Of a stretch of 64,000 nt of DNA, positions 22,101-36,163 are shown in pieces. Position numbers and translations under genes: made by a program. The DNA lies in the NCBI GenBank assembly GCA_019694615.1, contig JAIBBP010000264.1:958-64957 (forward strand). Direction: 5' to 3'. Position 1 is the first letter of the stretch, and each line of letters starts with the position of its first letter. The notes under the pieces are model-generated. The model was given only the letters and a program-made list of their open reading frames with translations, made no database searches and was not told the DNA's origin. This DNA comes from Microthrixaceae bacterium. Lineage in GTDB: Bacteria > Actinomycetota > Acidimicrobiia > Acidimicrobiales > Microtrichaceae.

Positions 22101-24165
22101 GCTGTGGAACGTGCTCGACATCGACGCTGGCGTCCAGCACTTCGCGGCAGAACTGTTCGATGTCATGGCTCCGTATCCACGGTGCGCCGAGCCGGGCGGT
22201 GATCTCGGTCGGTTCGAGCTGACGTGGGAGCACCCGCTCCAGCGCCGCGATGTTGGGCCGGTATCGACCATCGGGATCTTCGGTGGTGCGGCAGGCGTCG
22301 AGCTTGGTTCGGACGTTGCCCGACAGGTACTCCGACGCGGGGACGAGCCGGTTCGTGCCGGGCTCGTCGTAGACCAGTTCGCCGAGTTGCTCGCGAGCAT
22401 GGGCCGGGTCGGTGCCGAGGAGTTCCGCGACGCGGTCGACGGTGACCGTCCCGATCTCGTCGAGACACACCGCGACGGCTTCGTCGGAGCTGTCGACACC
22501 GTGTCGCTCGTGGGGTGGGTCGATGACCCGCCCATGGAAGATCGCCGCGGGTCGAGCTTGTTGGCTCTCTTCGTCGAACGCCTCCAGCGCCGCGACGAGC
22601 GGCCAGTCGGGATCTTCTCGAAAGCCGCCCATGCGCGGTCGAACCCGGCGCATGATGTCCTCGCCCGTGTCAGTGTTGCGGCGACCGGTGCGAGCCTCAC
22701 TGGACCGGTTGATCGGTCCGTAGACGCGCACATAGGTCCGGTACAGCTCACCGAGTACGCCTTGGGCAGCGTCGAGTCGTTCGTCGCTGCCGCCGTCGAT
22801 CTGCACCGCCAACACCCGGCGAGCAGCGTCACGCAGGCCGACGAGCCGTACCAGTTCGCTCTTGTCCTTCGCGACACGTGGCTTGTAGGTGACTGGGGTG
22901 CCGCCCTGGAGTTGGGCGACGTCGCCACGCTGGTTGACGACGAAGCTGCCGTCCTGAGCGTGCTCGAGGAAGAAGTCGCCTCGTGCTGCACGTCGCTCCG
23001 GGCGGTGTGCCTCGGCGTCGCGGCTGACAGCGACGTAGGTGAGGCCGCGCTCGGCCGCACCGGCGGCGAGGTCTGCGAGCGCGGCAGGGAGTTGCTCGTC
23101 AAGGTCTCCCGTCGGGGTGACGGTCAGCTCGTGGTCGCGATACATGCCCCGTGCCGCAGCGAGGTCGCCAAGGACGTGTTCGGGGTGGGCGAGGTAGTAC
23201 TCGTTGACCTCCAACGGAGCCGCGTCGGCGGCGGCCTCGATGGGCGCGGCGCCGACGCTCTCCCACGCTGGACCGGAGGCTTCGGCCCCCGGTGGACGGC
23301 GACGAAGGATCACCATGTCGACGACGACGTCGGTGCCCGACGAGCGGGCGAAGGCGCGCTCCGGCAGTCGGATCGCGCCGACGAGATCGGCCATCGAAGC
23401 CATCTCTCGGCGAGCTGCGGCGTTGCGGGCATCCAGGGTGTAGCGGGAGGTGAGCGCGACGACGAGCCCGCCAGGCCGGGTCAGGTGCAGCGACTTGATG
23501 AGGAAGTAGTTGTGCAGGGCGTGGCGTCCACGATTGTGTCGTGGGTCGTGCGGTGTGACCTTGGCGAAGGGCACGTTGCCGATCACCGTGTCGAACGCGC
23601 CGTCCTCGACACGCAACTCCTCGAACGCAGTGGCGTGGATGGTGGCCCGGGCTCCGTAGAGATGCTGAGCGATCTCGGCGGTGGTCTGATCGAGCTCGAC
23701 ACCGGTCACGCGCGCGCTGTCCGGTGCGAAGCCGATGAAGTTGCCCGACCCGCAGCCTGGCTCCAACACGCGCACCCCTTCCCCCGCGACTCCGAGTTGC
23801 TGGGCGGCGTGCCACATGGCCTTCACGACCGGAGCCGACGTGTAGTGGGCATTGAGCGTCGTTCGCCGGGCCTGCGCCCAGCCCGTCTCAGTGCGCAGTA
23901 GTTGCCGCAGCTCGGCGCGTTCGTCCGCGTAGCGATCGTCAGCGGTATCGAAGACCTGCGGGATCGCACCCCAACCCGACCAGCGGGCAAGGACTGCTTG
24001 CTCGTCGGGGGTCGCCCATCGCCCGCCCTCGTCTCGGCACCGATTGAGGACGGTGAGCGCGTCGAGATTCGCTCGCAGCTTCGCCCCTGCGCCCGCTGGG
24101 GCGAGGTCATCAGAGCTAGCCGGTCGGAACGGCTCCAGCCGGGCTGGAGGCGGGGATGGCTCGCT
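19129..24165 (-). CDS. giant N6-adenine DNA methyltransferase / SNF2-family helicase fusion
   Basis: SAM motif VLEPGCGSGNF, catalytic GNVPFA, helicase motif I AHAVGAGKTA, DEAH box FVDEAHAYKN, motif VI QRDGRILRQGN. The 5' end is unresolved (see findings), so the given start is only the first codon clear of the upstream gene. Confidence 0.8.
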   Translation of the reverse strand, partial: SEPSPPPARLEPFRPASSDDLAPAGAGAKLRANLDALTVLNRCRDEGGRWATPDEQAVLARWSGWGAIPQVFDTADDRYADERAELRQLLRTETGWAQARRTTLNAHYTSAPVVKAMWHAAQQLGVAGEGVRVLEPGCGSGNFIGFAPDSARVTGVELDQTTAEIAQHLYGARATIHATAFEELRVEDGAFDTVIGNVPFAKVTPHDPRHNRGRHALHNYFLIKSLHLTRPGGLVVALTSRYTLDARNAAARREMASMADLVGAIRLPERAFARSSGTDVVVDMVILRRRPPGAEASGPAWESVGAAPIEAAADAAPLEVNEYYLAHPEHVLGDLAAARGMYRDHELTVTPTGDLDEQLPAALADLAAGAAERGLTYVAVSRDAEAHRPERRAARGDFFLEHAQDGSFVVNQRGDVAQLQGGTPVTYKPRVAKDKSELVRLVGLRDAARRVLAVQIDGGSDERLDAAQGVLGELYRTYVRVYGPINRSSEARTGRRNTDTGEDIMRRVRPRMGGFREDPDWPLVAALEAFDEESQQARPAAIFHGRVIDPPHERHGVDSSDEAVAVCLDEIGTVTVDRVAELLGTDPAHAREQLGELVYDEPGTNRLVPASEYLSGNVRTKLDACRTTEDPDGRYRPNIAALERVLPRQLEPTEITARLGAPWIRSHDIEQFCREVLDASVDVEHVPQLGNWSARLRDGSRRSVALSSEWGTGRADAITLLDAALNQRLHTVTDVTDDGKRVRNDAETLAARDKQEALTSRFSTWVWEDPERASRLSGRYNELFSSTVLPNHDGDHLTLPGLAGTFTPRHHQRAAVARILTDGRALLAHAVGAGKTATMVMAAMELRRLGSASKPAVVVPNHMLDQFSREWLQLYPTARILVADRDRLSKARRKEFVARAATGDWDGIVFTQSGFARLPLGRDLMTDYLGEEIATARTALDGSKDGKGLSIKKLERRIAQMEETYKRLLSEHTKDDGVRFEETGIDYLFVDEAHAYKNRRVDSSIDGVANTGSQRAQDLDSKLWALRRLHGPRVVTFATATPVANSMAELWVMQSYLHPDLLASVDLRAFDAWAANFGRTHTALELAPDGASYRMQTRFARFQNVPELLTLYRQVADVRTNEDLDLPVPSLAGGQAETVVVEPSDVLVDYVADLASRAERIRNRAVDPSEDNMLKVTGDGRRAALDLRLVGEDAPTDSGKLTVAAQRIAAIHHATRDHRYTDETNQLTLRPGALQLVFCDVSTPAADGWNAYDELRALLVRRGVDHGSIRYMQDAKTDVAKAKLFAACRDGTVSVLIGSTETMGVGTNVQTRAIAMHHLDAPWRPADIEQRDGRILRQGNQNPEVRVLRYVTEGSFDTYMWQTLERKAAFIAQVTRGDLPDRDVDDIGDQALSFAEVKALATGDPLVLEKAAVDADVARLTRLERAHHDDQHRLRRTYETATLRAEKAEHRAGDLQTVVGRVTDTRGERFAMTIDGRTHSKRVDAGEHVQSLLRRRLGQTAPETTGPTTEIGRLGGLAVTAQAITTIEDEIRVAIPDAHIEVSYLAKDLTRHDAASLITRLERHLQRLPDTIADLNQEASSAKAEADRAAARIGVPWDRTEELVDLRRHQQEVEEQLAATTEPPIDQATSAPRAGSTETPPSAPPGGSAADRAAAARIAARLDIVQHRASTTTPGVEL

Positions 24166-24167
24166 GG

Positions 24168-24524
24168 CTACAGCGGGGTGTTGATCGCCTCGTTGATCTC
24201 CGCCAGATCCTGGTAGTGGCGGGCCAGGTCCGGCTCGTCGCTCCAGTCCTCGGTCTCCTCGGAGGGGTCCGGTTGGAGCAGCGGGTGGTCCGCCAGTGTC
24301 AGCTCCTCGGCCGTTGCCAACGCCTGGTAGCTGCGGAGCCGGTACTCCTCCGGCGTCTCGCCGGCCTTGGGCGGGCCGAGGATCTCGTCGCGCAGCTGGC
24401 TCACCGCCGCCGCGATCTGCTCCCCGGTCTCGGCGAAGAAGCCGGCGGGGTCCGGGATCTGCGAATAGGCGTCCGGCCGGTGCTTGCGGTTGTGGTCGAG
24501 CGCCATCTGACCGTATCGGTTCAT
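24168..24524 (-). CDS. conserved small hypothetical protein (118 aa)
   Basis: Strong AGGAGG 7 nt before the ATG and very high third-position GC. Overlaps the open N-terminal extension of the giant ORF in another frame. Confidence 0.7.
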   Translation of the reverse strand: MNRYGQMALDHNRKHRPDAYSQIPDPAGFFAETGEQIAAAVSQLRDEILGPPKAGETPEEYRLRSYQALATAEELTLADHPLLQPDPSEETEDWSDEPDLARHYQDLAEINEAINTPL

Positions 24525-24682
24525 GGGTCACCTCCTGGGTCGATGCCTCGTCGGCATCCTCGGGAGGGAGCGCTAGGTCGAACAGCGAGAGTTGTTCGGA
24601 GGGATTGCTGCGAGCGCTCCGAGCGCGTGCCATCACGCTACCCCCACCATCTCGCGGCCACCGAGCACCGACGGTGCCCGCA

Positions 24683-25006
24683 TCACAGTCCCCGGCCCTG
24701 CGCTTGGACCGCCTTGGGTGTCGCGTCGATCGACACGACACGACCCGGTGCCTGCAGAGCGGCCTCGGCGGCGCGGTTCCGCACCCACATCTCCTGCTGG
24801 CCATCGACTGCCAGGCGACGGAACCCCTCCCCCGCCAAGACTGCGCGGGTCGTGTCACCCGGCTCGTTGAGCACCATCACGATCTGGTGCTGCCGCGGGT
24901 CGAAGACGACCTCGACCTGGCGGCCTGCCCAAGTTCCCGCTGGCTCCGCGACCCATCCCACCGGAGCGAGCCGAGCGCGGTCGGTGGCCCGGAGGAACGG
25001 CTTCAT
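24683..25006 (-). CDS. hypothetical protein (107 aa)
   Basis: The start overlaps the coupling-protein stop (ATGA). Balanced amino-acid composition. Confidence 0.5.
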   Translation of the reverse strand: MKPFLRATDRARLAPVGWVAEPAGTWAGRQVEVVFDPRQHQIVMVLNEPGDTTRAVLAGEGFRRLAVDGQQEMWVRNRAAEAALQAPGRVVSIDATPKAVQAQGRGL

Positions 25007-26838
25007 GCCGTCCGCCCCTCTTCGCCGGCGGCCGTCGCGGCCCGCTTCGCCAGGTGCCGGTTGCGATAGAAGGGCCGCGTGCGCACGTGCGCTGGCGGCA
25101 GGGTGCCGTGCACCAGCAGCGCGTCACCGGGTCGCATCTGCCGCAGCACGTGCGCGGGGGCGAGGGGCACACGAGTGGTGGAGAACTGGTCCGAGCCGCC
25201 GCTGATCCGCTCGGCCGCCGAGTGGGATCGGGTGTCGACCTCGGCCTCGCCGAGCACACGATCGACGTATTGGATCGACGCCGGGTCCGACAGGCCCGCG
25301 TAGAACACCTTCGTCAGGTGGTTGGTGAGGATCGTGTCCGACGCCTTGCCGTAGGCGACCTCGATCTGCGCGAGCGACTGCCAGATCGTCACCAGCAACA
25401 CCCCGAGCCCGGCGAGGGTCGAGGCGTACTCCGGCAACGATCGCAGCGGCGTGTTCCCGGCCTCGTCGATCACCACCAGCAGCGGCGGGTCGAGGGCCTT
25501 CCCGGTGGCGGCGACGTGTCGGTACGCCTGGTTGATGAGGTCGTTGAGCAGCCCGCCGAACGCCGGGGCCAGACGGCGTTGGTCCTCGATCGGCGAGCAG
25601 AGATACACCGTGTTGGACCCCGACAGCAGCCACGGCAGGTCGACCCCGATGAATCCGCTCTTCGCGTTCTTGCCCTTCGGTGACCGCGCTGACGCGGCCA
25701 CACCGGGATCGGTCCAGGGCCAGATCACGGTCTGAGCTGTGGCGTAGATGGAAGAGCGAGTCCTCTCCTCCATCTCCCACACCGACACCAGGCCCTTGGC
25801 GACCTCGACCGCACCTCGGGAGACCGCTGCGTTGTTCGAGAGGTTCAACGAGTCGAGCGCGGCGCGGACCTCACCGGGGCCGAGCTCGCCAGGCCGGTCC
25901 TGGGTGAGCACCCACTCGCAGACCGCGTCCATGTCCCGATGGGCGTTGTGCGCAACGAACAGCAGGCCCGACAACAGGATCTCGGCCTGCGCCAACCAGA
26001 AGTCCATCCCGCCCTCGACGCCACCCCGAGGGGCGGCATCGCATAGCGCCCTCGCTGCCCGCTGCGCGCCCACGACGGTCCCGGCCTGTTGCAGAGGCGA
26101 CCACAGGGCCGAGGTGCCTTTCGGTGTGGTCGATGACGTTGGGTCGTAGACGCGAACGTCGCCGAGGGTTGAGCGCCACCCCTGTGTTGTGGACAGCAGG
26201 TCGGCCTTGACCGACGACAGCACCGCGGGACCGTCCCACTCGAGGATGCCCGCGACAGCAGCAGTGGTCTTGCCCGACCTGGACGGTCCGACCAGCGCCA
26301 CTGCACCGCGATCTCCCCGACGGGAGCGACGCGCCGACCTACCAGCTCGGCCCTGAGTTCGAGGCGGCGGCGACTCGGTGGCGACCAGGCGTCGGCCGAA
26401 GCGAGCAAGGATCAGCCGACCTGGCGTTGGACCCGACACAAGCAGCGGGTCAAGGTCTCGGCGCTTCGCGAACTTCGTCCTTCCATCGACGCCGAGGGGG
26501 CGACGCTTGGCGGTCCCCACCTTCGAACGGGTCAGCCACCGGACGACGAGCGCCACCGCGCCCCCGATGGCGATGGCCGCCAAGACGGTGCAGAGCCAGT
26601 AGAGCGGCGCACCCGGCAGGGCCTCGGCGTAGGGCTCGGCCCAGGCTTCAGCAGGCGCGCTCAAGTTCGCCGGAAGGCGCGGTGCAGCATCAGCAGCGGC
26701 GGCGAACGGCAGGTGCCCACCGCCCGAGACGGCGAGCGCCAGCCACGCGCCCGCCCACACCGCACCAACCAGCGCCAGCGCGATGCCGGCGACGATGATC
26801 ACGAGCAGCTCGAAGCCGCCGACACCTTCGCGTTCCAT
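25003..26838 (-). CDS. type IV coupling protein (VirD4/TraG/TraD family)
   Basis: Two N-terminal TM segments, Walker A GPSRSGKTT, Walker B LLVVIDEAGN. The ATG at 26838 is two codons inside the GTG used by the ORF track. Confidence 0.9.
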   Translation of the reverse strand: MEREGVGGFELLVIIVAGIALALVGAVWAGAWLALAVSGGGHLPFAAAADAAPRLPANLSAPAEAWAEPYAEALPGAPLYWLCTVLAAIAIGGAVALVVRWLTRSKVGTAKRRPLGVDGRTKFAKRRDLDPLLVSGPTPGRLILARFGRRLVATESPPPRTQGRAGRSARRSRRGDRGAVALVGPSRSGKTTAAVAGILEWDGPAVLSSVKADLLSTTQGWRSTLGDVRVYDPTSSTTPKGTSALWSPLQQAGTVVGAQRAARALCDAAPRGGVEGGMDFWLAQAEILLSGLLFVAHNAHRDMDAVCEWVLTQDRPGELGPGEVRAALDSLNLSNNAAVSRGAVEVAKGLVSVWEMEERTRSSIYATAQTVIWPWTDPGVAASARSPKGKNAKSGFIGVDLPWLLSGSNTVYLCSPIEDQRRLAPAFGGLLNDLINQAYRHVAATGKALDPPLLVVIDEAGNTPLRSLPEYASTLAGLGVLLVTIWQSLAQIEVAYGKASDTILTNHLTKVFYAGLSDPASIQYVDRVLGEAEVDTRSHSAAERISGGSDQFSTTRVPLAPAHVLRQMRPGDALLVHGTLPPAHVRTRPFYRNRHLAKRAATAAGEEGRTA

Positions 26839-26844
26839 ACCCAC

Positions 26845-26860
26845 GTAGGCCCCTCGGCGA
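26845..26860 (-). promoter_or_regulatory. conserved motif TCGCCGAGGGGCCTAC-N6-ATG (instance A)
   Basis: Read on the minus strand, the motif ends 6 nt before the coupling-protein ATG. The same motif and spacing occur at 36149-36157 and 49896-49910. Confidence 0.45.
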
Positions 26861-26972
26861 GGCGAAACTTCGCGGGCGAGATCAGCCGTTGTGGATGAGT
26901 GTCATGAGGACGAATCGCGCGGCGCCTACCGCTGTCGGCCCGTGCGGAGGGGCTTGTCCGGCGCCGGGACTA

Positions 26973-27671
26973 TCAGAGGCGCCGAGCCCCGTAGACGTCG
27001 ATCACCTTCTGGCGTGAGCTGGCGTCCCTCAGGAGTGAGCTCGTTTCGAGCAGCGCCCGTCCCAAGTCCTTCATGGCCAAGGTGATGCTTGGCACCACCA
27101 ACATCAGCGGGCCCATCGTTCCCAGCGGCGGGCGATGGTCTAGCGCGGCGTATGCCCCGTCGGAGGGGAGAGCGTCGAGGTAACCGGGTACGTCGGCGAA
27201 CACGTACGGACCGTGGTGATGGCTGACGTGAAACGGGCGCCCGGCGCGTAGTGAAGAGCTGCGGTGCTTCCAGGTGTGGTTGATGAACGCCATCAGCGGC
27301 TCAGTTGTTGAGAGCTTGCGCTTGGTCGGCTTCCCAGTCTTCGCGGCGCCTCCGATGATGCGGAGGTCGGCGACGAGCTCCTCCCAGAGCAGGAACACGA
27401 TGCCGTAGTAGCGGAAGACCATCTCTGCTTCGTCGCTGTCGTCGGTCCAAGCCGTGAGTTCCACGTGATCGCACCAGGTGCCGAACCGGAGGAGGTCATC
27501 AAGGGCCTGCAGGTGGGAGAGCACGTTGCAGTACGGGGCGACATGTGACGCCTCGCGGTATTGCTGCCAGACACACGGACGCCACTGACCGACGCGGGTT
27601 CTCGACCAACGGTCGAGCTCCGAGACCGCATTCTCTCGGATCGCCTCGAAGCAGACAGGCTCGTCCCTCAT
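26973..27671 (-). CDS. hypothetical protein (232 aa), no recognisable family
   Basis: Clean ORF with Cys/His/Trp-rich N-terminal half. Has visibly more A/T-ending codons than its neighbours. Confidence 0.55.
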   Translation of the reverse strand: MRDEPVCFEAIRENAVSELDRWSRTRVGQWRPCVWQQYREASHVAPYCNVLSHLQALDDLLRFGTWCDHVELTAWTDDSDEAEMVFRYYGIVFLLWEELVADLRIIGGAAKTGKPTKRKLSTTEPLMAFINHTWKHRSSSLRAGRPFHVSHHHGPYVFADVPGYLDALPSDGAYAALDHRPPLGTMGPLMLVVPSITLAMKDLGRALLETSSLLRDASSRQKVIDVYGARRL

Positions 27672-27761
27672 CCGACTTGAGGCTAGGTGCGCACGAGGCG
27701 CTCAGCGGTCCCGGTTCCGGCGTCGTGCCACGACGCTGGAGCCGCGCCAGTCGCCGGTTCG

Positions 27762-27787
27762 GGGTAGGCCCGCAGCCGGGCCTACCC
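27762..27787. terminator. stem-loop GGGTAGGCCCG-CAGC-CGGGCCTACCC
   Basis: Perfect 11-bp stem located 55 nt downstream of the Shedu-like gene stop. It also contains the GGGCCTAC core in both orientations. Confidence 0.4.
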
Positions 27788-27842
27788 AGCCCCTCGATCG
27801 GGCGTCGTCACCCCTGATTTCTTCCCGTGGCCGCGCGCCGAC

Positions 27843-29108
27843 TCAGTCGGCGAGGAACTCGAGGTCGGGCTGCAAGCGAGCGTCGCGTTGGAACAGCGCC
27901 GCGTTGGCCGCTGGAACCCCTTGGAACGTGATGGCAGCACGGAGCCTGTTGAGGAAACGGTCGTAGGTCATGACCTCCACACGACTCTCCACTGCGATGG
28001 TCTGCCTAACCGCACTGGCGTTCTCGTTCAGGAGGTGCTCGCGTCCGACGATGAGGTAACCGTCAGCACGAGGACTGATGTCGTACAGACCAAGTCCGCC
28101 GGCCGACCGCGGGGATTGGGCCTTGTGCAGGTTGCGTTCGAGCCACGTACGCCAGTCCTGGATCTGAGCGAGCCCGATCCGTGCGTGTTTCTCCAGAAGG
28201 TTCTGCGACTTGACCGTTGTCGAAGATCGAGGCGTTTCAATCTCGACAAGCACCCAGCGGACGCCGTTGGAATCGGCGTCAGCAACGACGAAGTCGGGTA
28301 CGTACTCGTCGCCGAGCCGGGGCTGGCCAACGACATACCGATCGGGTCCTCGGACGAGCGACGCCAGCAGTTCTGGATGGCCCTCCAAGAACGCCTGGAT
28401 CGGCTTCTCGTCCTTCGCGGTTTCAATGGTGAGTTCAAGTTCATCGACTTGGTCGATCGTTGCTCCCACAGGGGTGTGGAAAGGCGCGAGGTCTCTGTGC
28501 TTCGCCAGGGACCACGTTCGTCCCGGCCGGCCGATCGAACGATTGAGGGCCGCCTGCCTCTTCGCCTCCGCGTTCACGCCCTGCCTTGAGGCTCGTAAGG
28601 CCATCTCGATGAGGTCGGGGTAGGCCCATCGCCCTCGCCCGTGAAACCACACGCGTCCGTGTCGGTCGACCGAGCTGACCATCTCCAGCCAGTCGTCGCC
28701 TCGGTCAGGTCGTCGGACAAGGTCGCCTGGTTCAGGCTTCAGCCGCTTCAGGTTCGCTGATCGGCGGCGCATCAGGAAGTACGACACCCACGCATGCAGT
28801 TCCTCGGCCGATCGCGGGGATGGGGTCTTCCGGCCGGAGGCACTGGCGAGATCTTCGAGCCATTCAAGTGCGCCATCCCCCTTGATCGGGCGAGGCTGCG
28901 TCTGCAGAGACTCTCCGAGCGCGTCTCGCAGGCGCGCCGCTGCCACCACGAAGGGGAGACCCCTCAACGACACGCCAGCAATCGCCGCAAGCTTCTGCTG
29001 CTCGGGTGTTGCGGTGCCGATGGCGCGATCGAGGTTCTGCACTGCCGCGAGCCAGGTCCCACCCGTCATGCCAAGACCATACGAGGCAGCAACGCCTTGG
29101 CTCTTCAC
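27843..29108 (-). CDS. Shedu-like (DUF4263-like) PD-(D/E)xK-fold protein
   Basis: The C-terminal half has IQAFLEGHPELL ... YVPDFVVAD ... WVLVEIETP ... AQIQDWRTWLERN, which parallels the SduA/DUF4263 core as I recall it. The expected E-x-K reads E-I-E-T. Confidence 0.5.
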   Translation of the reverse strand: MKSQGVAASYGLGMTGGTWLAAVQNLDRAIGTATPEQQKLAAIAGVSLRGLPFVVAAARLRDALGESLQTQPRPIKGDGALEWLEDLASASGRKTPSPRSAEELHAWVSYFLMRRRSANLKRLKPEPGDLVRRPDRGDDWLEMVSSVDRHGRVWFHGRGRWAYPDLIEMALRASRQGVNAEAKRQAALNRSIGRPGRTWSLAKHRDLAPFHTPVGATIDQVDELELTIETAKDEKPIQAFLEGHPELLASLVRGPDRYVVGQPRLGDEYVPDFVVADADSNGVRWVLVEIETPRSSTTVKSQNLLEKHARIGLAQIQDWRTWLERNLHKAQSPRSAGGLGLYDISPRADGYLIVGREHLLNENASAVRQTIAVESRVEVMTYDRFLNRLRAAITFQGVPAANAALFQRDARLQPDLEFLAD

Positions 29109-29138
29109 GGTTCAGTGAGCCGGGCGTAGCATCAAGCT

Positions 29139-29720
29139 ATGGATGCGACGTGGAGTCGCGGCGACGGCGGCAGCGAGTGGACCGCCGCAACCGACCTGGC
29201 AGGGCACATTGCCGCCGGTGGGGAGTTGCCGAGCATCCCGAGCCCAGTGCTGATGGATGCGGGCGAGGTGCTCCATGCTGACCTTCCTGCTCAGGGTTGG
29301 CGGTTCCACGGCGCGGACGTCACGTATGTCGCGCCTCACGTCGTCGCGATCGGCGGTCCGCTCATGTTCGGGCTCACCGCGGCGGGCAGCGCCGTCGCTC
29401 GTCGCCGGGCGCGCCACGAGGCCGAGGCGTTGGCCGCACCGCAGTGGCGACCGTTGGGTGCGTTGCGCATCCTCGTGACCGACCGACGTTTGCTCGTGTG
29501 GCACAAGGGCGCCTGGGCGTCGGTTTGGTTCAGCGTGATCCGTGAGATCCGACCGGACCTGGCGGTGGGTCGTCTCGACATGACCTTCGAGGACGATCCG
29601 CCGTACTGCCTTGCTGGGCCGTGGGTGCCGTACCTGACGGTGATCGTGACCACGCTGCTCGCTGGTATCCGAGGTGTCCGTGCGGTCGAGGATGCTCTCG
29701 CTGTCCCGCACGGTGCCTGA
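29139..29720 (+). CDS. hypothetical membrane-associated protein (possible bacterial PH-like domain)
   Basis: The only plus-strand gene in this block. Has a hydrophobic segment (VVAIGGPLMFGLTAAGSAV) and an ILVTDRRLLVWHKG pattern. Confidence 0.4.
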   Translation: MDATWSRGDGGSEWTAATDLAGHIAAGGELPSIPSPVLMDAGEVLHADLPAQGWRFHGADVTYVAPHVVAIGGPLMFGLTAAGSAVARRRARHEAEALAAPQWRPLGALRILVTDRRLLVWHKGAWASVWFSVIREIRPDLAVGRLDMTFEDDPPYCLAGPWVPYLTVIVTTLLAGIRGVRAVEDALAVPHGA

Positions 29721-30785
29721 TCATCGGCTGACGCTGAACCCTGCTGCCGTGTACCTCACGGCGAGGTTGACCGAGCGTCCCATATCGTGGGTCCAGTCGT
29801 CGGAGCGGCGCATGGCGTCGTTCAGGTCGCCGCTGCCCAGATCGAGCACGACCGGTGGGTGTTGGCGAGCTTCGAGGAGCGATGCGAGTCGATGGGAACC
29901 AGCGTGTCCGGCGTCGTCGGCGTCGAACGCGATGACCAAGGGGTGTGGGAGCTTGGCGAGGGCGGTGGCGACGGCTTCGTCGCCGTAGGTGGCGCTCAGC
30001 ACGGCGACGGCTCGATAGCCAGCCGCGGCGGCTGAAAGCGCGTCGATGGCTCCTTCGGTGACGACGACTTCCGGATGGCGTGTCTCTACTGGTCGTGCTC
30101 GGGCGAGGCGTGGGTTGGTGGCGAGGTCCGCGGTGGGGTTGAGGTACCGGGGCCGGTCGGCCCGGGGATGCGGTACCCGGAGCTGTGCGTAGACGGCGTG
30201 GCCGTTCTCGATGGCGGGGAGGACGATGCCTGCGGCACGGGGCATGCCATCGGGGCGCGGTTGTGCGTGTGGACCGACGTCGGCGCCGATGCGGTTCTCC
30301 ACGAGGACGTCGTGTGGGAGTCCACGGCTGTTGGTGAGCCACCGTTGCATCGCTTGTCCGCCCGGTGTCCAGAGTCGTGTCGCGCAATCGTCGATGTAGC
30401 GGGCGAGTCCTTCGGGGTCACGACAACCTGCCGGGGGCAACGTCCGAGGTGGCGCGGCTCGACGTGGGGGATGCCAGTCGTCTGGTTGCTCACGGTGGCC
30501 GGAACGATCGGCGAGGTAGGTCATGGCGTCGCGTGGTGTACCGCCCCGGACGGCGAGGACGAGGTCGATGGCCGTTCCGCCATCACCGCAACCGTGGCAG
30601 CGCCAACGCTGCTCGCCGCGACGGCTGGTGAAGATGCTGACGGGAGGGGTGCGGCCGGTCTGGGCATGCTGTGCGCTGGGGCAGGGCCACATCGGGGATC
30701 TTCCGCCGCCAGACGGAGGACCAAGGAGGTCGTCGGCGAGGGCTCGAAGGTCGACGGCGGCCAGGAGTGCGTCGCGGTCGAACAT
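29721..30785 (-). CDS. DNA primase (CHC2 zinc finger + Toprim)
   Basis: CPSAQH ... RCHGCGDGGTAIDLV zinc finger. Toprim VVVTEGAIDALS and AFDADDAG. Confidence 0.85.
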   Translation of the reverse strand: MFDRDALLAAVDLRALADDLLGPPSGGGRSPMWPCPSAQHAQTGRTPPVSIFTSRRGEQRWRCHGCGDGGTAIDLVLAVRGGTPRDAMTYLADRSGHREQPDDWHPPRRAAPPRTLPPAGCRDPEGLARYIDDCATRLWTPGGQAMQRWLTNSRGLPHDVLVENRIGADVGPHAQPRPDGMPRAAGIVLPAIENGHAVYAQLRVPHPRADRPRYLNPTADLATNPRLARARPVETRHPEVVVTEGAIDALSAAAAGYRAVAVLSATYGDEAVATALAKLPHPLVIAFDADDAGHAGSHRLASLLEARQHPPVVLDLGSGDLNDAMRRSDDWTHDMGRSVNLAVRYTAAGFSVSR

Positions 30786-30788
30786 GGC

Positions 30789-32093
30789 TCACGCCGCCTC
30801 GGTCCGATCGGTCGGGCCGTTCATGCGGGCGTCGGTGTCGACGATGGGCTGCTCGCCAGGGCCGAGGATGTGGTGGACGACGGCGGTTCGGCCACCGAGC
30901 TTCCACAGCGCGCGACCGCGGGTGAGCTGGCCGACGATGGACGCTTCGGGCCCGGTGAGTCCGAAGTGGGCGACGGCGGCGTCGAGCTGGTCGGGGGCTT
31001 GGCGAAGGATGATCTTCGTGGCCGAGTCCGCGAGGAGACCGGCGGCGATCTTGCTCGTGGCGGTGCCGTCGTCGGCCTGGGCCACGAGGTCCGAGGCGCG
31101 GTGGGTGATGCAGAGGTTCGCGACGCCGTAGGTGCGGCCAAGCTTGAAGCAGCTCTGGAGGTAGGCGGCGGTGTGGCGGTTCGCGAGGAGCGCCCAGGCT
31201 TCGTCGAGGACCTGCACGCGCTGGGGGCCGGGGCAGGCCATGAGCTGTTGGAACCAGCCTGCGGCAGCGACCATGACCAACGGGAGCGCGTCGGAGTCGG
31301 TCGGCACAGCGGAGAGGTCCATCACGACACCTGGGCCGTCCCAGCGCAGCGGGACGGTGGACCGTCCGTCGAACATGCCGCGCAACGATCGGGAGAGCAG
31401 CTTGTCGAGGGCGTACGCGATCGTGCTCATCTCAGCGGCGAGATCGTGATCCGTGCCGCGAAGCCGTTCGGTCATCGCGTCGGTCGGGTTGGCGACGAGA
31501 CGGGCGACATCCGCGAGCGTGGGCTCGTCGAGCGGAGCGGCGGTGACCTGTTCGATCGCCGCGAACACCGCTGCGTCCTCGAGCTGGGTAAGTGGCCGCT
31601 CGAGCACCGTGCCGACGAGCGCGATGCACATCTCAGCTCGGCGGAGGATCTGGCGATCTTCGGGCTCGTGTTCCGCCGCGGGACCCGGGGCAAGAGGGTT
31701 GATGGTGGCCGTGCCGCCGGGGCTGAGCTTCACCGTGGTGAAACCGAGGTGCTCGGCGAGGGTCGCGTACTCCCCCTTCGGATCCGCGATTCCGACCCAC
31801 CTCCCGCTCGAGCCGGTGCCGTAGATCGCGGCTTGTCGCCACAGGAGGCACTTGACGAGCGCCGACTTGCCGTTGCCGGGCTCGCCGAGCACCCATCCGT
31901 TCGGGTTCGTGACGAGCCCGGCGGCGTAGGCCTCGAAGGGGTCCCAGCAGAACTCACTGCCACCGGCGAGGAGATCGAGACCGACGTAGGTGCCTCGGTG
32001 TCCGAAGGAGCCTTGGACCGAGAAGGGGTAGATGCTGGAGACGTGGGCGGTGGTGCCTTGGTGGTAGCGGAGCCGCAGTGATGGCCGGGTCAT
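30789..32093 (-). CDS. VirB4-like conjugative ATPase (C-terminal ATPase domain type)
   Basis: Walker A GEPGNGKSA, Walker B VQVLDEAWALL. ATGA overlap with the upstream membrane protein. Confidence 0.85.
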   Translation of the reverse strand: MTRPSLRLRYHQGTTAHVSSIYPFSVQGSFGHRGTYVGLDLLAGGSEFCWDPFEAYAAGLVTNPNGWVLGEPGNGKSALVKCLLWRQAAIYGTGSSGRWVGIADPKGEYATLAEHLGFTTVKLSPGGTATINPLAPGPAAEHEPEDRQILRRAEMCIALVGTVLERPLTQLEDAAVFAAIEQVTAAPLDEPTLADVARLVANPTDAMTERLRGTDHDLAAEMSTIAYALDKLLSRSLRGMFDGRSTVPLRWDGPGVVMDLSAVPTDSDALPLVMVAAAGWFQQLMACPGPQRVQVLDEAWALLANRHTAAYLQSCFKLGRTYGVANLCITHRASDLVAQADDGTATSKIAAGLLADSATKIILRQAPDQLDAAVAHFGLTGPEASIVGQLTRGRALWKLGGRTAVVHHILGPGEQPIVDTDARMNGPTDRTEAA

Positions 32094-33580
32094 GACGCCA
32101 GGAGGGTCGAGGGGGCGAGGCCGAGCGGGAGCGCGGCGGCCCAGCCGAGGTCTTGGCGGGCGTCGAGGACGCGCAGGTCCATGCCGCTCTCCCGTGCGAG
32201 TTGCTCGATGATCTCGGAGTGTTCGTCGAGGTCGTCGAGGCTGCGGGCCGAGACGGTGACGAGTCCGGCGTAGCCCATCTCGGGGTAGCCGGCGACGAGC
32301 TCCTCCTCGCGGTCGAGCAGCGCTTGGGTGGCGCGGCGGTGACGGGCGTCGATGCGCCGTCCCTTCTCCTCCTTCGTGACGGCATCGGATTCGAGCTTCA
32401 CGAGGTCACGTTCGATGCGTCGCCGGGACTGGTGGGTGGAGACGGGCTGGAAGTAGACGGTCATCGATCTGGTGACGCCGCCGCCGGAGAGGAACGGTTC
32501 CAGCCATGCCGGTGGCACGGCGAGGCGGGGCCAGGTGCCGACCCACCAGGTGCGGTGGAACGCTCCGTCGACGCGTAGGTGCCGCCAGTCGGTCTCCAAC
32601 GCGAGCGGCCCGGCGGTTCCGGCTCGGACGAGCGCGAGGCGTTCGACGAGACGTCCTCGGCGGGGACGGGGCTTCTCACCGACAGGGTCGATGCGTGAGC
32701 GGACGAGACGTTGCAGCCCGGTGGGGTCGAGCGGGTTGGATGCGGCGAGGTCCGCTGAGCGCAGGCCGCGAAGGAGCGCCTCGACCGAGGTGACGAGCGC
32801 TCGGCGGAGTTGCTCGTCGACGCCTCCCATTCCGGTCCGGCGGCGCGAGAGGCGCTCGCGGGCAACGGTGATCGTGACGACCGCTTCGTGGTTGATGGCT
32901 GACGCGGTGCCGACTTCGAGGAGGTCGCGGTAGGACGTCGCTGCCGGTTCGTTGGGGATGCCCCTTGATTCGGAGTTCAGCCAGGCGATGTGGTCGGCCA
33001 TCCCGGACGGTTGGGCGAGGTCTGACCACGACAGGTGGGAGACGACGCCCCGTTCGACGGCGTACTGGCCGAGCAGGTCGCCCCATCCAGTGAGGAGGCG
33101 CTCCTGCTCGCCGCGGGGTTCGACCACGAACTGCGGCCCCGACGCGGGAACGACTGCGGTGAGGGTGTGACGGTGCCGGTCACGAATCGCTCCGAGGGCC
33201 ACACCGCCGCGCCAGTCGAGGCCGACGATGTCGAGCCCGTCGAGGCACGGCGGCATCGGCGCTGGGCCCTCGGCGGTGGACCACAGCGGGAGCGGGGCGT
33301 TCCAGCGTCGACCGCGTCGCAGGCGCGTCCAGGACCAGCCTGCCAGCAGGGGTACCCACTCCCAGGTGGCGTGGCCGCCGATGCGGGTGAAGCTCACCGC
33401 GGCACCGACGAATACGGGGACCGCTGCAACCGGTAGCGGGGCTCCTCCGCTGAGGGTGACGACCGCCAGGCCGATGCCACCGCCGAGGAGGATGCACTGG
33501 ACCAAGCCGAGACCGAGGAAGATCCCTGAGCTGTCGAGTGGTTCGAGCCGGTAGGACCGGTCGACGCGCTCAGGAGACAT
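32090..33580 (-). CDS. conjugation membrane protein (possible VirB3/VirB4 N-terminal equivalent)
   Basis: Two N-terminal TM segments followed by a ~400-aa soluble domain. Translationally coupled to the ATPase. Confidence 0.55.
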   Translation of the reverse strand: MSPERVDRSYRLEPLDSSGIFLGLGLVQCILLGGGIGLAVVTLSGGAPLPVAAVPVFVGAAVSFTRIGGHATWEWVPLLAGWSWTRLRRGRRWNAPLPLWSTAEGPAPMPPCLDGLDIVGLDWRGGVALGAIRDRHRHTLTAVVPASGPQFVVEPRGEQERLLTGWGDLLGQYAVERGVVSHLSWSDLAQPSGMADHIAWLNSESRGIPNEPAATSYRDLLEVGTASAINHEAVVTITVARERLSRRRTGMGGVDEQLRRALVTSVEALLRGLRSADLAASNPLDPTGLQRLVRSRIDPVGEKPRPRRGRLVERLALVRAGTAGPLALETDWRHLRVDGAFHRTWWVGTWPRLAVPPAWLEPFLSGGGVTRSMTVYFQPVSTHQSRRRIERDLVKLESDAVTKEEKGRRIDARHRRATQALLDREEELVAGYPEMGYAGLVTVSARSLDDLDEHSEIIEQLARESGMDLRVLDARQDLGWAAALPLGLAPSTLLAS

Positions 33581-35039
33581 TGCCAGGCCCCTTTGGTGGT
33601 GCCGAGTCGGAGCCGCCAGATGGGCGCGAGGAACCGGACGGCCGCTCCGGCGGCGGAGATGGATCCGGTGTCGGGCGACCGCCCGCGGGGTGGTCCGAGC
33701 GGGGTGTGCTTCTGGCCGGTGGTCTCGCGCCCCGGGTGGACTCGGCGGTGTCGGTCGCTTCGCTGGCGGTCTCCGCCGCGACGCGCGCTCCGGTGTCGAT
33801 ACCCTTCTTGGTCGTCTCGACGACCTTGGCGGCGGCTACCACTGCGGCGCCCACCCCTGTTGCTGCCGCGCCCGCACCTGCCGCCCCGGCTCCAGCGCTG
33901 CCAGACCCGCCGGCGGTGGGTGCGCCAGCTCCCCCTGGTGGAGCGCCTCCTTGTGGTCCGGCACCCGCTCCTCCTGCTTCGCCGCCGCCGGCACGGCCGC
34001 TGGCGAGCTGGCTGTATCGGCGGCCGGTGACCATCTGCAGGGTGTTGGCCATCATCAGGCCCTGGTGCCCGGCACGGACTGGGGAGCCGGGGATGCCCTG
34101 GGCGACGAGCGCCGCCTCGGTGAGGGGCAGCAGGCGGGCGACGAGCAGCGGGGAGAACGCGGCGACGCCAAACGCAGCCGCGGCGGTCAGCAGGATGCCG
34201 ACGGCCTGGGTGACCGACCCGCCGGGATCTTCGGCGAACACCTCAGGCTCGGGAAGCGAGGTCACCTCGCCGCCCGAGCCCGTGCCGACCGCGGCCGCCG
34301 CTGCGACCGAGAGGGCGACGGCGATGACGAGCTTGGAGACGATGAGGGCGACGAGTAGGTCGAGGAGCTTGCGGCTTGCTCCCTTGGTGGCTGGCCACAG
34401 ACGAGTGGCGAAGACGATCGGGGCGAGCGCCACGACGATGTAGATCAGCGCGGACCGCACGACGAGCACGGCGACGAGCACGAGCCCAGCGAGCACGGCG
34501 ACGAGTCCGAGGACGAACACGACGAACGCCGTCGACGTGCCACCGGAGAGGTGGCTGAGCGTGAGGATCACCGCTGTGAAGTCGGAGATGTCGTCTTGGA
34601 AGTTGCCGATGATCTCGCCGGACAGCGCGTCGGTGAGCCGGATCAGCACTTGGATGATGGTCACGAGCCCGACCATGCCGAGCACCGACACCGGCAGCTC
34701 GAGGGCCATCCGGCGGAGCATCCCGCCGACGTCGCCGCTCAAGGTTCCTTGGACGATCCCTGCGAGGACGAACAGCAGCAGGAGTGTGGCGCCGATGCTG
34801 ACGGTGGTGGCGTAGGGGCCGGTGCCGGTGATGAACCAGTCGGCTTGGACGTTCGGGTCGGTCGAGTCGATGAAGAAGTTGAAGACGCCACCGACGACCC
34901 AGATCACCGCGTCGACGACCCAGGCGACAAGGCCGCCGATGATCACTTCGAAGCCCGCTGTGGCGACATCGCCGACGAAGCCGGTGACCTTGTCGATAGC
35001 CCAGCCGACCGGGTTGGGAAAGCTGATGCCGAGGATCAC
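33570..35039 (-). CDS. polytopic T4SS membrane protein (VirB6/TrbL-like) with G/A/P-rich tail
   Basis: At least six hydrophobic helices. GTGA start-stop overlap at 35036-35039. Low-complexity C-terminal tail. Confidence 0.55.
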   Translation of the reverse strand: MILGISFPNPVGWAIDKVTGFVGDVATAGFEVIIGGLVAWVVDAVIWVVGGVFNFFIDSTDPNVQADWFITGTGPYATTVSIGATLLLLFVLAGIVQGTLSGDVGGMLRRMALELPVSVLGMVGLVTIIQVLIRLTDALSGEIIGNFQDDISDFTAVILTLSHLSGGTSTAFVVFVLGLVAVLAGLVLVAVLVVRSALIYIVVALAPIVFATRLWPATKGASRKLLDLLVALIVSKLVIAVALSVAAAAAVGTGSGGEVTSLPEPEVFAEDPGGSVTQAVGILLTAAAAFGVAAFSPLLVARLLPLTEAALVAQGIPGSPVRAGHQGLMMANTLQMVTGRRYSQLASGRAGGGEAGGAGAGPQGGAPPGGAGAPTAGGSGSAGAGAAGAGAAATGVGAAVVAAAKVVETTKKGIDTGARVAAETASEATDTAESTRGARPPARSTPRSDHPAGGRPTPDPSPPPERPSGSSRPSGGSDSAPPKGPGNVS

Positions 35040-36048: not shown

Positions 36049-36091
36049 GAGGGAACCTCCTCGGAAGCGGTGAGACGTTGTCGTCACCCCC

Positions 36092-36107
36092 GTAGGCCCC
36101 TCGGCGA
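36092..36107 (-). promoter_or_regulatory. conserved motif TCGCCGAGGGGCCTAC (instance B)
   Basis: Same 16-mer as instance A, here 37 nt upstream of an SD-led ATG. Back to back with instance D in a 115-bp divergent region. Confidence 0.45.
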
Positions 36108-36157: not shown

Positions 36158-36163
36158 CTGGGC

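What the first reader, a model, noticed from the sequence alone, without database searches (positions are those of the whole stretch)
26973..29720. Three-gene islet with a Shedu-like protein inserted between two T4SS transcription units
An islet lies between the coupling-protein unit and the primase end of the T4SS operon. It holds a 232-aa orphan, a 421-aa protein and a divergent 193-aa membrane-associated protein. The C-terminal half of the 421-aa protein parallels the Shedu SduA/DUF4263 nuclease core (PDF ... VEIETP ... AQIQDW). The islet uses more A/T-ending codons than its neighbours, and a strong hairpin (27762-27787) separates two of its genes. Where Shedu has the E-x-K catalytic triad element, this protein reads E-I-E-T. 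It is therefore either a variant active site or an inactivated sensor. The long N-terminal region (~230 aa) and both neighbours match nothing I recognise, so the three genes could be a new Shedu-derived defence or exclusion module carried by the ICE.
Basis: partly seen in the sequence, partly recalled or inferred. Interest (0 to 1): 0.65.

Follow-up and report, generated by a model that had tools for sequence, protein, structure and literature searches.

The report
Stand-alone Shedu nuclease as ICE cargo
The 421-aa gene is a genuine but atypical Shedu anti-phage nuclease that works as a single gene, sits in a swap-in defence slot of a conjugative element, and does not form a three-gene system with its neighbours.

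Summary
The three ORFs, the PDF/VEIETP/AQIQDW motifs and the hairpin are all present as described. The 421-aa protein is a clear Shedu homologue: Pfam SduA_C scores 55 bits against a cut-off of 27, eight PADLOC SduA models match, and the top Foldseek hit is the B. cereus Shedu nuclease. All six catalytic positions align with E. coli SduA except the lysine, which is Glu (E289-x-E291). That Glu is nearly invariant in 150 diverse relatives from a subfamily of hundreds of clusters, so it is a conserved variant active site and not decay. The three-gene module is not supported. A related Iamia ICE has the same backbone with the T4CP and the 193-aa gene 230 bp apart, so the insert is window 26877-29121 and holds two genes only. 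The 193-aa gene is ICE backbone, with more than 300 homologues. One close relative carries Shedu without the 232-aa gene. The 232-aa family occurs elsewhere beside other defence genes and never beside Shedu. No neighbour recurs in 33 loci of the Shedu clade. In sister ICEs the same slot holds a Type ISP restriction enzyme, an Iet system or PDC-M09, so it is a defence-cargo hotspot. The finding is correctly spotted but is a variant member of a known defence family and of modest interest.

The parts
26877..29121 (.). Cargo insert of 2,245 bp relative to the sister ICE of Iamia majanohamensis, where 180 bp occupy this position. It contains only the 232-aa gene and sduA.
   Evidence: blastn: window 19294-26876 and 29122-36000 are collinear with L014 at about 82% identity, and the stretch between them has no counterpart. 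In the L014 gene table the T4CP and the 193-aa gene are adjacent.
27843..29108 (-). sduA, a Type-1 Shedu nuclease. It is 421 aa from the GTG at 29108; the more likely start is the ATG at 29069, giving 408 aa.
   Evidence: Pfam SduA_C 55 bits against a cut-off of 27, whole profile covered. Eight PADLOC SduA models match. The top Foldseek hit is 8ti9, the B. cereus Shedu nuclease domain (E 8.5e-5, prob 1.00, TM 0.64). P0001, the 408-aa form, is 100% identical.
27951..28415 (-). SduA_C / DUF4263 PD-(D/E)xK nuclease domain (residues 232-386). Motif I is E234/Q238, motif II D272, motif III E289-I-E291, motif IV Q315.
   Evidence: Pfam coordinates. In-silico probing of the Pfam HMM: D272A -7.5, Q315A -6.6, E289A -5.8, Q238A -4.1, E234A -3.9 bits. 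The AF2 secondary structure places D272 at the start of one beta strand and E289/E291 on the next.
28236..28244 (-). Codons GAG ATT GAA, which encode E289-I290-E291. This is motif III with Glu where characterised Shedu proteins have the essential Lys.
   Evidence: Read directly from the sequence. E291 is conserved in 136 of 144 aligned diverse relatives, and K occurs once. E. coli SduA K285A is inactive.
28464..29108 (-). N-terminal region (residues 1 to about 215): a helical bundle (about 18-123), a small beta domain (about 128-172) and linker helices. It is the presumed sensor/regulator domain and its type is not identified.
   Evidence: AF2 pLDDT is mostly 80-94 over residues 20-190. There is no Pfam hit at E<=1 and no significant Foldseek PDB hit outside the nuclease domain. 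It is conserved in full-length relatives.
27762..27787 (-). Perfect 11-bp GC-rich hairpin with a 4-nt loop, 56 nt downstream of the sduA stop. It may be a U-tract-less terminator, but this is unproven.
   Evidence: the repeat finder I17; RNA fold; it does not fit the terminator consensus.
26973..27671 (-). 232-aa gene, a second and independent cargo gene. It belongs to a conserved, mostly helical family with an invariant Cys/His-rich motif (C33, H43, C48, C67, H136, H148, H151-H153), no known fold and no known function.
   Evidence: 18 homologues. Invariant columns. AF2 pLDDT 86.6, pTM 0.86. No match in Pfam, PADLOC, NCBIfam, PHROGs, PDB or BFVD. Found without Shedu elsewhere. Absent from L004.
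29139..29720 (+). 193-aa gene, which is ICE backbone and not part of the islet. It has two hydrophobic segments (about 61-87 and 156-183) and lies next to the primase in all sister ICEs.
   Evidence: More than 300 homologues across Acidimicrobiia. Present beside the primase in 25 sister loci that lack Shedu. Hydropathy.
25003..26844 (-). VirD4/TraG-type T4SS coupling protein, the left border of the cargo slot.
   Evidence: Pfam T4SS-DNA_transf 103 bits and TraG-D_C 68 bits.
29721..30785 (-). Toprim/zinc-ribbon primase of the ICE backbone.
   Evidence: Pfam Toprim_2, Toprim_3 and Toprim_4.
9531..63084 (.). Probable extent of the whole ICE (about 53.5 kb). It is bounded by an exact 59-bp direct repeat that is the 3' part of tRNA-Met. 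A tyrosine integrase lies at 58639-59868(-).
   Evidence: Exact repeat at 9531-9589 and 63026-63084. tRNA-Met calls. Phage_integrase 91 bits.

Best explanation
Window 27843-29108(-) encodes a stand-alone Type-1 Shedu (SduA) nuclease. It belongs to a large and so far uncharacterised subfamily whose PD-(D/E)xK site reads E-x3-Q ... D ... E-x-E ... Q, with Glu replacing the catalytic Lys. The gene sits, with an unrelated 232-aa gene, in a variable cargo slot between the coupling-protein gene and a conserved 193-aa backbone gene. The host element is a tRNA-Met-integrated conjugative element of about 53.5 kb from an activated-sludge Acidimicrobiia bacterium. In sister elements the same slot carries other defence systems.

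The mechanism is inferred by analogy with B. cereus and E. coli SduA. The protein probably assembles through its DUF4263 domain. The N-terminal domain of about 215 aa holds the nuclease in check until it senses a feature of invading DNA. The metal-dependent site (E234, Q238, D272, E289, E291, Q315) then cuts that DNA, which protects the host and therefore the ICE.

E291 probably acts as a third acidic ligand or general base, as in BamHI-type ExE sites. The clade-specific R310, five residues before Q315 on the same helix, is a candidate supplier of the missing positive charge.

Shown here: homology, fold, motif register, clade-wide conservation, cargo status and independence from the neighbours. 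Inferred: nuclease activity, oligomeric state, trigger, anti-phage phenotype and the role of R310.
For: Family: Pfam SduA_C 55 bits; PADLOC SduA x8; Foldseek 8ti9 prob 1.00.

Register: alanine substitutions at E234, Q238, D272, E289 and Q315 each cost 3.9-7.5 bits against the Pfam HMM. The spacing mirrors EcSduA E226/Q230/D269/E283/K285/Q314 and BcSduA E204/D249/E264/K266/Q295.

Conservation: in 150 mutually diverse relatives, E234 142, Q238 142, D272 142, E289 140, E291 136 (K 1), Q315 135, R310 133. R310A and R320A cost nothing against the general Shedu HMM, so these residues are clade-specific. The subfamily is large: 356 representatives at E<=1e-30, mostly full length.

Cargo status: collinear Iamia ICE without the insert; 24 more sister ICEs without it. 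The slot holds Type ISP/IIG RM (1,904 bits), IetA+IetS and PDC-M09A in L021, L025 and L027.

Single-gene status: L004 has Shedu without the 232-aa gene. No recurrent neighbour in 33 clade loci. Shedu is described as a single-gene system that often rides on mobile elements.

ICE: T4CP, primase, integrase and 59-bp att repeats.

Presence in the field: the insert is in about 20 sludge/wastewater metagenomes and in sludge RNA libraries at depth comparable to its flanks.
Against: No activity data exist for any ExE Shedu, and in E. coli SduA the K285A mutant is dead. Sequence profiles of the clade do not reach the solved Shedu proteins, so the residue register rests on HMM probing, spacing and predicted secondary structure, not on a superposition of coordinates. 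The N-terminal domain has no identified fold, so the trigger is unknown. The RNA evidence comes from unstranded assembler contigs that may include DNA. The role of R310 is conjecture.
Confidence: 0.78

Rival explanations
1. Inactive pseudo-nuclease. The K-to-E change abolishes catalysis, and the protein acts only as a DNA binder or sensor, or is a relic.
For: The motif III Lys is essential in EcSduA (K285A abolishes cleavage and immunity). No ExE Shedu has been assayed.
Against: Every other catalytic residue is nearly invariant across 150 diverse relatives, and position 291 is itself fixed as Glu and is not drifting. The Pfam model scores E almost as well as K at that column (E291K +1.0 bit, E291A -3.3 bits), so ExE forms make up a large and maintained part of the family. 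PD-(D/E)xK enzymes with Glu or Gln in place of the Lys are active (BamHI D94/E111/E113, BglII; my own knowledge).
Confidence: 0.12
2. Two-gene system. Shedu and the downstream 232-aa protein work together, as in the two-component KELShedu.
For: The two genes are on the same strand, 171 bp apart, and were inserted together relative to the Iamia ICE. They are also together in L015. A two-component Shedu precedent exists.
Against: L004 (84% identical Shedu, same slot) lacks the 232-aa gene. None of 33 other clade loci has a 232-aa homologue nearby. The 232-aa family occurs without Shedu beside a Type I RM system, STAND NTPases, NERD and a T4CP. KELA is a 110-aa protein encoded in a bicistronic operon with a 3-bp intergenic gap, and its partner KELB has only a short N-terminal domain. 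Here the Shedu has its own 215-aa N-domain, and a perfect hairpin lies between the genes.
Confidence: 0.08
3. Three-gene module, that includes the divergent 193-aa membrane protein.
For: Adjacency and divergent orientation, with only 30-69 bp between the start codons.
Against: The 193-aa gene has more than 300 homologues. It is present next to the primase in 25 sister ICEs that have no Shedu. It lies outside the inserted DNA.
Confidence: 0.02
4. The Shedu mainly serves competition between mobile elements, by excluding or degrading incoming conjugative or linear DNA, and not phage defence.
For: It is located inside the conjugation gene cluster of an ICE. EcSduA acts on linear DNA ends independently of phage. 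Gu et al. suggest a role in superinfection exclusion for Shedu carried on mobile elements.
Against: The same slot in sister ICEs carries classical anti-phage systems (RM, Iet). Most clade members are not in ICE contexts. EcSduA does not target circular plasmids.
Confidence: 0.1

Closest known systems
Bacillus cereus B4264 Shedu (SduA, Type 1A; PDB 8ti9; Gu et al., bioRxiv 10.1101/2023.08.10.552793)
   Same: C-terminal DUF4263 PD-(D/E)xK nuclease domain with the same fold (Foldseek prob 1.00). Motifs I, II, IV and the Glu of motif III are present. It has the N-terminal domain plus linker plus nuclease architecture and is a single-gene system.
   Different: About 20% identity, so sequence profiles do not connect the two. 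The motif III Lys (K266) is Glu here. The N-terminal domain is not the sPC4/Whirly fold and is unidentified.
Escherichia coli SduA (PDB 8ps4; Loeff et al., bioRxiv 10.1101/2023.08.10.552762)
   Same: The active-site residues E226/Q230/D269/E283/Q314 run in parallel with E234/Q238/D272/E289/Q315 at almost the same spacing. There is a weak sequence match in the C-terminal strand/helix.
   Different: K285, which is essential there, corresponds to E291 here. The end-binding N-terminal clamp of EcSduA has no detectable counterpart.
KELShedu two-component system (Sci Adv 2025, PMC12577705)
   Same: A DUF4263 nuclease encoded next to a second small gene.
   Different: KELA is a 110-aa dsDNA binder in a bicistronic operon with a 3-bp gap, and it binds the short N-domain of KELB. 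Here the neighbour is downstream, 232 aa long, separated by 171 bp and a hairpin, dispensable in a close relative, and not co-distributed with the Shedu.
BamHI/BglII-type PD-(D/E)xK sites in which the Lys is replaced (D94/E111/E113 in BamHI; my own knowledge, not tested here)
   Same: A D...E-x-E arrangement on the same two beta strands, which shows that an ExE site can be catalytically competent.
   Different: There is no homology beyond the superfamily fold. Whether E291 plays the role of E113 is inference.
Defence-cargo hotspots of conjugative elements, for example hotspot 5 of SXT/R391 ICEs (my own knowledge)
   Same: A fixed backbone position, here between the T4CP and the 193-aa gene, holds different defence systems in different relatives: Shedu, Type ISP RM, Iet, PDC-M09A, or nothing.
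   Different: The ICE family (Acidimicrobiia, actinobacterial-type T4SS) and the hosts are different. This hotspot has not been described, as far as the papers I read show.

Membership tests
Shedu (SduA / DUF4263) | DUF4263 / SduA_C domain above the curated threshold | tested here: met
   PF14082 scores 55 bits against a cut-off of 27, residues 232-386, profile positions 2-159 of 159. Eight PADLOC SduA models match down to 6.9e-14.
Shedu (SduA / DUF4263) | PD-(D/E)xK fold resembling solved Shedu nuclease domains | tested here: met
   Foldseek ranks 1-2 are 8ti9_B and 8ti9_C, E 8.5e-5, prob 1.00, TM (target) 0.64-0.65. The model has a mean pLDDT of 77.9.
Shedu (SduA / DUF4263) | Motif I Glu (and Gln), motif II Asp, motif III Glu, motif IV Gln | tested here: met
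   E234, Q238, D272, E289 and Q315 are invariant or nearly invariant. Each alanine substitution lowers the Pfam score by 3.9-7.5 bits.
Shedu (SduA / DUF4263) | Motif III Lys (E-x-K), essential in EcSduA and listed as an active-site residue in BcSduA | tested here: not met
   Position 291 is Glu here and in 136 of 144 aligned relatives. However, the Pfam column scores K and E about equally (E291K +1.0 bit, E291A -3.3 bits). The Lys therefore characterises the studied members and does not define the sequence family.
Shedu (SduA / DUF4263) | Single-gene system with no obligatory partner | tested here: met
   No recurrent neighbour in 33 loci. L004 carries the gene without the 232-aa neighbour. 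L001 and L005 have unrelated neighbours.
Shedu (SduA / DUF4263) | Type 1 architecture: N-terminal regulatory/sensor domain of a catalogued class | tested here: inconclusive
   A folded N-terminal region of about 215 aa is present, but it has no Pfam or PDB match. The published table of 79 N-domain families is not held, so it could not be compared.
Shedu (SduA / DUF4263) | Homotetramer through the DUF4263 domain; metal-dependent DNA cleavage; anti-phage protection | not testable with these tools
   This needs multimer modelling or experiments.
KELShedu-type two-component Shedu | Small partner gene co-transcribed and co-distributed with the nuclease | tested here: not met
   The 232-aa gene is absent from L004 and from 33 clade loci, and it is found without Shedu elsewhere.
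Integrative conjugative element with a defence-cargo hotspot | Integrase, att repeats and T4SS/T4CP genes, plus a fixed backbone position with variable cargo among relatives | tested here: met
   59-bp repeats of the tRNA-Met 3' end, 53,495 bp apart. Integrase. T4CP and primase. The gap at this position ranges from 104 bp to 6.3 kb and holds RM, Iet, PDC-M09A or Shedu.

The most novel reading that the evidence does not exclude
The E-x-E Shedu subfamily may be a mechanistically distinct branch of Shedu. It would cleave with a BamHI-like all-acidic motif III and use the clade-specific R310 (or R320) in place of the canonical Lys. It would also sense infection through an N-terminal helical-bundle plus beta-domain module of a type not yet described. 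Separately, the adjacent 232-aa Cys/His-rich protein may be the founding member of a new defence-island-associated metalloprotein family. It has a confident fold with no match in the PDB or BFVD, and it recurs next to Shedu, Type I RM, STAND NTPases and NERD on mobile elements.
Probability: 0.3. Interest if true: 0.55.

Novelty: new variant of a known kind. Interest (0 to 1): 0.33.

Why it matters
Both mechanistic studies of Shedu treat the motif III lysine as part of the active site, and one shows directly that it is essential. This locus belongs to a branch of hundreds of sequence clusters in which that lysine is a conserved glutamate while every other catalytic residue is kept. If these proteins are active, the family's catalytic definition needs widening, and E291 and R310 become obvious targets for mutagenesis. 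The locus also documents a previously unremarked defence-cargo slot in a family of Acidimicrobiia conjugative elements that are common in activated sludge. That slot is useful for finding further defence genes by position, such as the unknown cargo in L024 and L039 and the 232-aa family. Standard tools (PADLOC, DefenseFinder, Pfam) would already label the gene as Shedu, so this refines a known family and is not a discovery of a new kind of system.

Tried and rejected
(1) Sequence bridges to solved Shedu structures failed. phmmer found nothing. The 8-sequence profile gave only a marginal C-terminal match to 8ps4 (E 0.42). The 82-sequence profile found nothing relevant. I replaced this approach with Foldseek and with substitution probing of the Pfam HMM.
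(2) I tested whether the 236-aa gene downstream of the Shedu in L001 is a homologue of the 232-aa gene. It is not (E 0.44).
(3) NCBIfam and PHROGs gave nothing for any of the three proteins.
(4) I found no flanking direct repeats or other insertion scars around 26877/29121.
(5) The consensus scan found no promoters in the region and no terminator at the hairpin; its one terminator-like site (29508-29521, + strand) is within chance expectation.
I repeated it with A1.
(7) The supplementary tables of Gu et al. are not held, and cluster members carry no accessions, so the N-domain could not be matched to their N1-N59 classes.
(8) RNA libraries are available only as unstranded assembler contigs. 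They show that the sequence is present in the libraries but cannot test whether the hairpin terminates transcription.
(9) The word-index homologue search suggested only 10 relatives. The exhaustive search showed that this was a sensitivity artefact.
Full report
**Observation.** The three ORFs are present exactly as listed: 26973-27671(-) of 232 aa, 27843-29108(-) of 421 aa and 29139-29720(+) of 193 aa. The quoted peptide motifs are in the 421-aa translation. The hairpin is a perfect 11-bp stem with a 4-nt loop at 27762-27787. The flanking genes are a VirD4/TraG-type coupling protein (25003-26844) and a Toprim primase (29721-30785).

The composition claim holds only in part. Overall GC of the two leftward genes is 0.637-0.639 against about 0.69-0.70 for the neighbours. 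Third-position GC, however, is 0.730 for the 421-aa gene, similar to the primase at 0.738. It is an ordinary 0.815 for the 232-aa gene and 0.784 for the 193-aa gene. The hairpin lacks a U-tract and is not picked up by the terminator scan, and the intergenic region as a whole folds no better than shuffles. The likely start of the 421-aa gene is the ATG at 29069 (408 aa), which is the form called in an identical metagenomic protein and the point where the homologues begin.

**The 421-aa protein is a Shedu homologue.**
- Pfam SduA_C (PF14082, formerly DUF4263) matches residues 232-386 over the whole profile at 55 bits, against a gathering score of 27.
- Eight PADLOC SduA models match.
- An AlphaFold2 model built on an 8-sequence alignment (mean pLDDT 77.9) finds the B. 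cereus Shedu nuclease domain (8ti9) as its top two PDB hits. The values are E 8.5e-5, probability 1.00 and TM 0.64-0.65 on the target.
- Nothing else in the PDB is significant, and the N-terminal 215 residues have no Pfam or structural match.

**Active site.** The two mechanistic papers define the Shedu site. In B. cereus SduA it is motif I E204, motif II D249, motif III E264/K266 and motif IV Q295. In E. coli SduA it is E226, Q230, D269, E283, K285 and Q314, and the K285A mutant is inactive.

Sequence profiles of this clade do not reach the solved proteins. I therefore fixed the register in three ways:
1. Spacing. E234-x3-Q238, D272, E289-x-E291 and Q315 mirror the E. coli residues almost position for position.
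2. Predicted secondary structure. D272 opens one strand of a beta hairpin, E289/E291 lie on the next strand, and Q315 lies on the following long helix. This is the canonical PD-(D/E)xK layout.
3. Probing the Pfam HMM with single substitutions of the nuclease domain (wild type 57.9 bits). The changes were D272A -7.5, Q315A -6.6, E289A -5.8, Q238A -4.1 and E234A -3.9 bits. These residues therefore sit on the conserved columns.

At position 291, E-to-K gains only 1.0 bit, E-to-A loses 3.3 and E-to-Q loses 2.0. The family model already accepts both Lys and Glu there.

**The change is a clade character, not decay.** The word-index search returned only 10 relatives. The exhaustive profile search found 2,662 representatives at E<=0.001 and 356 at E<=1e-30, and most of the best 150 are full length at about 400 aa.

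In those 150 proteins, the window residue is found in this many of them at each position:

| Position | Count |
|---|---|
| E234 | 142 |
| Q238 | 142 |
| D272 | 142 |
| E289 | 140 |
| E291 | 136 (Lys once, Gln three times) |
| P293 | 138 |
| R310 | 133 |
| Q315 | 135 |

These counts are, and the 82-sequence alignment gives the same picture. A site under relaxed selection would not keep all metal ligands and also fix Glu at the Lys position.

R310 and R320 are nearly invariant in the clade, yet they contribute nothing to the general Shedu HMM score (R310A +0.2, R320A -0.1 bits). They are therefore clade-specific. R310 lies five residues before Q315 on the same helix and could supply the missing positive charge, but this is conjecture. 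From my own knowledge, PD-(D/E)xK enzymes with Glu (BamHI) or Gln (BglII) at this position are active. I therefore favour a working variant site (about 0.65-0.7) over a pseudo-nuclease.

**The islet has two genes, not three.** Iamia majanohamensis (CP116942) carries the same ICE backbone in the same order: helicase/methylase, 118 aa, 107 aa, 613-aa coupling protein, 193-aa gene, Toprim primase, VirB4-like, 496 aa and TrbL-like. There the coupling protein and the 193-aa gene are neighbours.

blastn aligns window 19294-26876 and 29122-36000 to that ICE at about 82% identity. Window 26877-29121 (2,245 bp) stands in place of 180 bp. The 193-aa gene therefore lies outside the insert. It has more than 300 homologues across Acidimicrobiia. 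It sits beside the primase in 24 further sister ICEs from sequenced genomes, and none of these has Shedu or the 232-aa gene. It has two hydrophobic segments, so 'membrane-associated' is plausible, but it is backbone.

**The 232-aa gene is an independent passenger.**
- A metagenomic relative with an 84% identical Shedu in the same slot (L004) runs from the Shedu stop through about 210 bp straight into the coupling-protein start. It has no 232-aa gene.
- The slot therefore exists in three states: empty (L014), Shedu only (L004), and Shedu plus the 232-aa gene (window, L015).
- The 232-aa protein is not an orphan. It has 18 homologues at 39-100% identity.
- Where the homologues' surroundings could be read (L007-L013, L071, L072), they lie on other mobile or island-like DNA without Shedu. 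Neighbours include an M78 peptidase and a coupling protein with a TIR-NACHT gene nearby (L007), an integrase and a 2,046-aa STAND ATPase (L010), NERD and FtsK-like genes (L013), sigma factors and a Prim-Pol (L071), and a Type I RM system 9 bp downstream plus an AAA_15/21 ATPase (L072).
- Conversely, 31 metagenomic loci of the Shedu clade plus L001 and L005 share no flanking gene family except among near-identical contigs. None has a relative of the 232-aa, 193-aa, coupling-protein or primase genes. The gene downstream of the Shedu in L001 is unrelated to the 232-aa protein.

This fits the published description of Shedu as a single-gene system that is often carried on mobile elements. It differs from the two-component KELShedu, whose 110-aa partner lies in a bicistronic operon with a 3-bp gap and binds a short N-domain.

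**The slot is a defence hotspot.** Among sister ICEs the distance from the coupling protein to the 193-aa gene ranges from 104 bp to 6.3 kb. The larger gaps encode:
- a 1,627-aa Type ISP/IIG restriction-modification enzyme in L021 (PADLOC 1,904 bits; Pfam Type_ISP_C, Mrr_cat_2);
- IetA plus IetS in L025;
- the candidate system PDC-M09A in L027;
- unknown proteins in L024 and L039.

The element itself appears to be a 53.5-kb ICE. It is bounded by an exact 59-bp repeat of the 3' part of tRNA-Met (9531-9589 and 63026-63084) and has a tyrosine integrase at 58639-59868. The insert occurs at full word identity in about 20 activated-sludge and wastewater metagenomes. It is also in sludge RNA libraries at contig depths comparable to the flanks. 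Those data are unstranded contigs, may include DNA, and cannot test the hairpin.

**The 232-aa protein.** The family has a striking set of invariant residues: C33, W35, H43, C48, N49, W66, C67, D68, R87, D102, R104, N131, H136, R137, H148, H151-H153, G154, P155, Y156 and D160. Its predicted fold is confident and mostly helical (pLDDT 86.6, pTM 0.86). It matches nothing in Pfam, PADLOC, NCBIfam, PHROGs, PDB sequences, PDB structures (best E 2.4) or viral structures (best E 2.6). A metal-binding enzyme or sensor is a reasonable guess. Its recurrence next to different defence systems makes it a candidate defence-associated gene, but nothing links it functionally to Shedu.

**Verdict.** The interpretation as a new three-gene module is not supported.

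The best description is a stand-alone Type-1 Shedu of a large, uncharacterised E-x-E subfamily. It is carried with an unrelated gene of unknown function in a defence-cargo hotspot of an Acidimicrobiia ICE.

Because one feature of the characterised family, the motif III Lys, was tested and not met, I file it as a variant of a known kind and not as a plain member. Standard annotation tools already call it Shedu, and mobile-element hotspots that exchange defence systems are a familiar theme, so interest is modest (0.33).

Noticed in passing
L021:1946-6829; L025:3387-6628; L027:3783-4772; L024:5499-6914; L039:3757-4506: In sister ICEs the slot between the coupling protein and the 193-aa gene carries a Type ISP/IIG RM enzyme (L021), IetA+IetS (L025; IetS is split into two ORFs) and PDC-M09A (L027). 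L024 carries a 471-aa protein and L039 a 249-aa protein with no Pfam or PADLOC match. These two unknowns are candidate new defence genes by position.
   Followed up: partly
window 26973-27671; L007, L010, L013, L071, L072: The 232-aa family has an invariant Cys/His-rich signature (RPCxWQ, YCN, WCD, DLR, KHR, FH..HHHGPY) and a confident helical fold with no PDB or BFVD match. It recurs on mobile elements next to different defence genes: Type I RM, STAND ATPases, NERD, and a TIR-NACHT gene nearby.
   Followed up: partly
window 9531-9589 and 63026-63084: An exact 59-bp direct repeat equals the 3' part of tRNA-Met. The copy at 63028-63104 is an intact tRNA (66 bits), and the copy at 9533-9604 is a weaker tRNA call (41 bits) with a divergent 5' half. 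With the integrase at 58639-59868, this suggests attL/attR of an ICE of about 53.5 kb. That element would also include the FMO, SDR and hydrolase genes at 10-17 kb.
   Followed up: partly
window 24562-24647: ARAGORN calls an 86-nt tRNA-Ala(cgc) between the 118-aa and 107-aa genes. Rfam does not support it at the gathering threshold, so it is probably a false positive.
   Followed up: partly
window 19129-24858: The mechanical 1,909-aa ORF is over-extended at its 5' end and swallows the 118-aa gene (24168-24524). The Iamia orthologue is 1,646 aa (methyltransferase, ResIII and helicase domains), which implies a true start near 24070.
   Followed up: no
L026:7547-9156; L032:6984-9514; L035:1370-3093: There is a second variable position in the same ICE family, between the 193-aa gene and the primase. 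It holds 1.6-2.5 kb inserts, including a DUF4236 protein (L026) and an FG-GAP/HYR repeat protein (L032).
   Followed up: partly
window 24800-31000 in runs X31-X33, X40: In sludge RNA-library assemblies the insert is one unbranched unitig (for example 26828-29332, depth about 21). The backbone on both sides is cut into many short branching unitigs at higher depth (30-60). This suggests that several ICE variants with different cargo coexist in the same communities.
   Followed up: partly
L015:10001-11311: A 77.8-kb ENA contig is collinear with the window at 89.7% identity over 18 kb and carries the same two cargo genes. Its gene calls are fragmented and frame-shifted (P0010, P0027). This is most likely an error-prone long-read assembly and not true pseudogenes.
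   Followed up: partly
L014:19640-20080: The Iamia ICE encodes a protein with a weak E2-CBASS Pfam hit about 9 kb beyond the slot. I did not examine it or check for its counterpart in the window.
   Followed up: no
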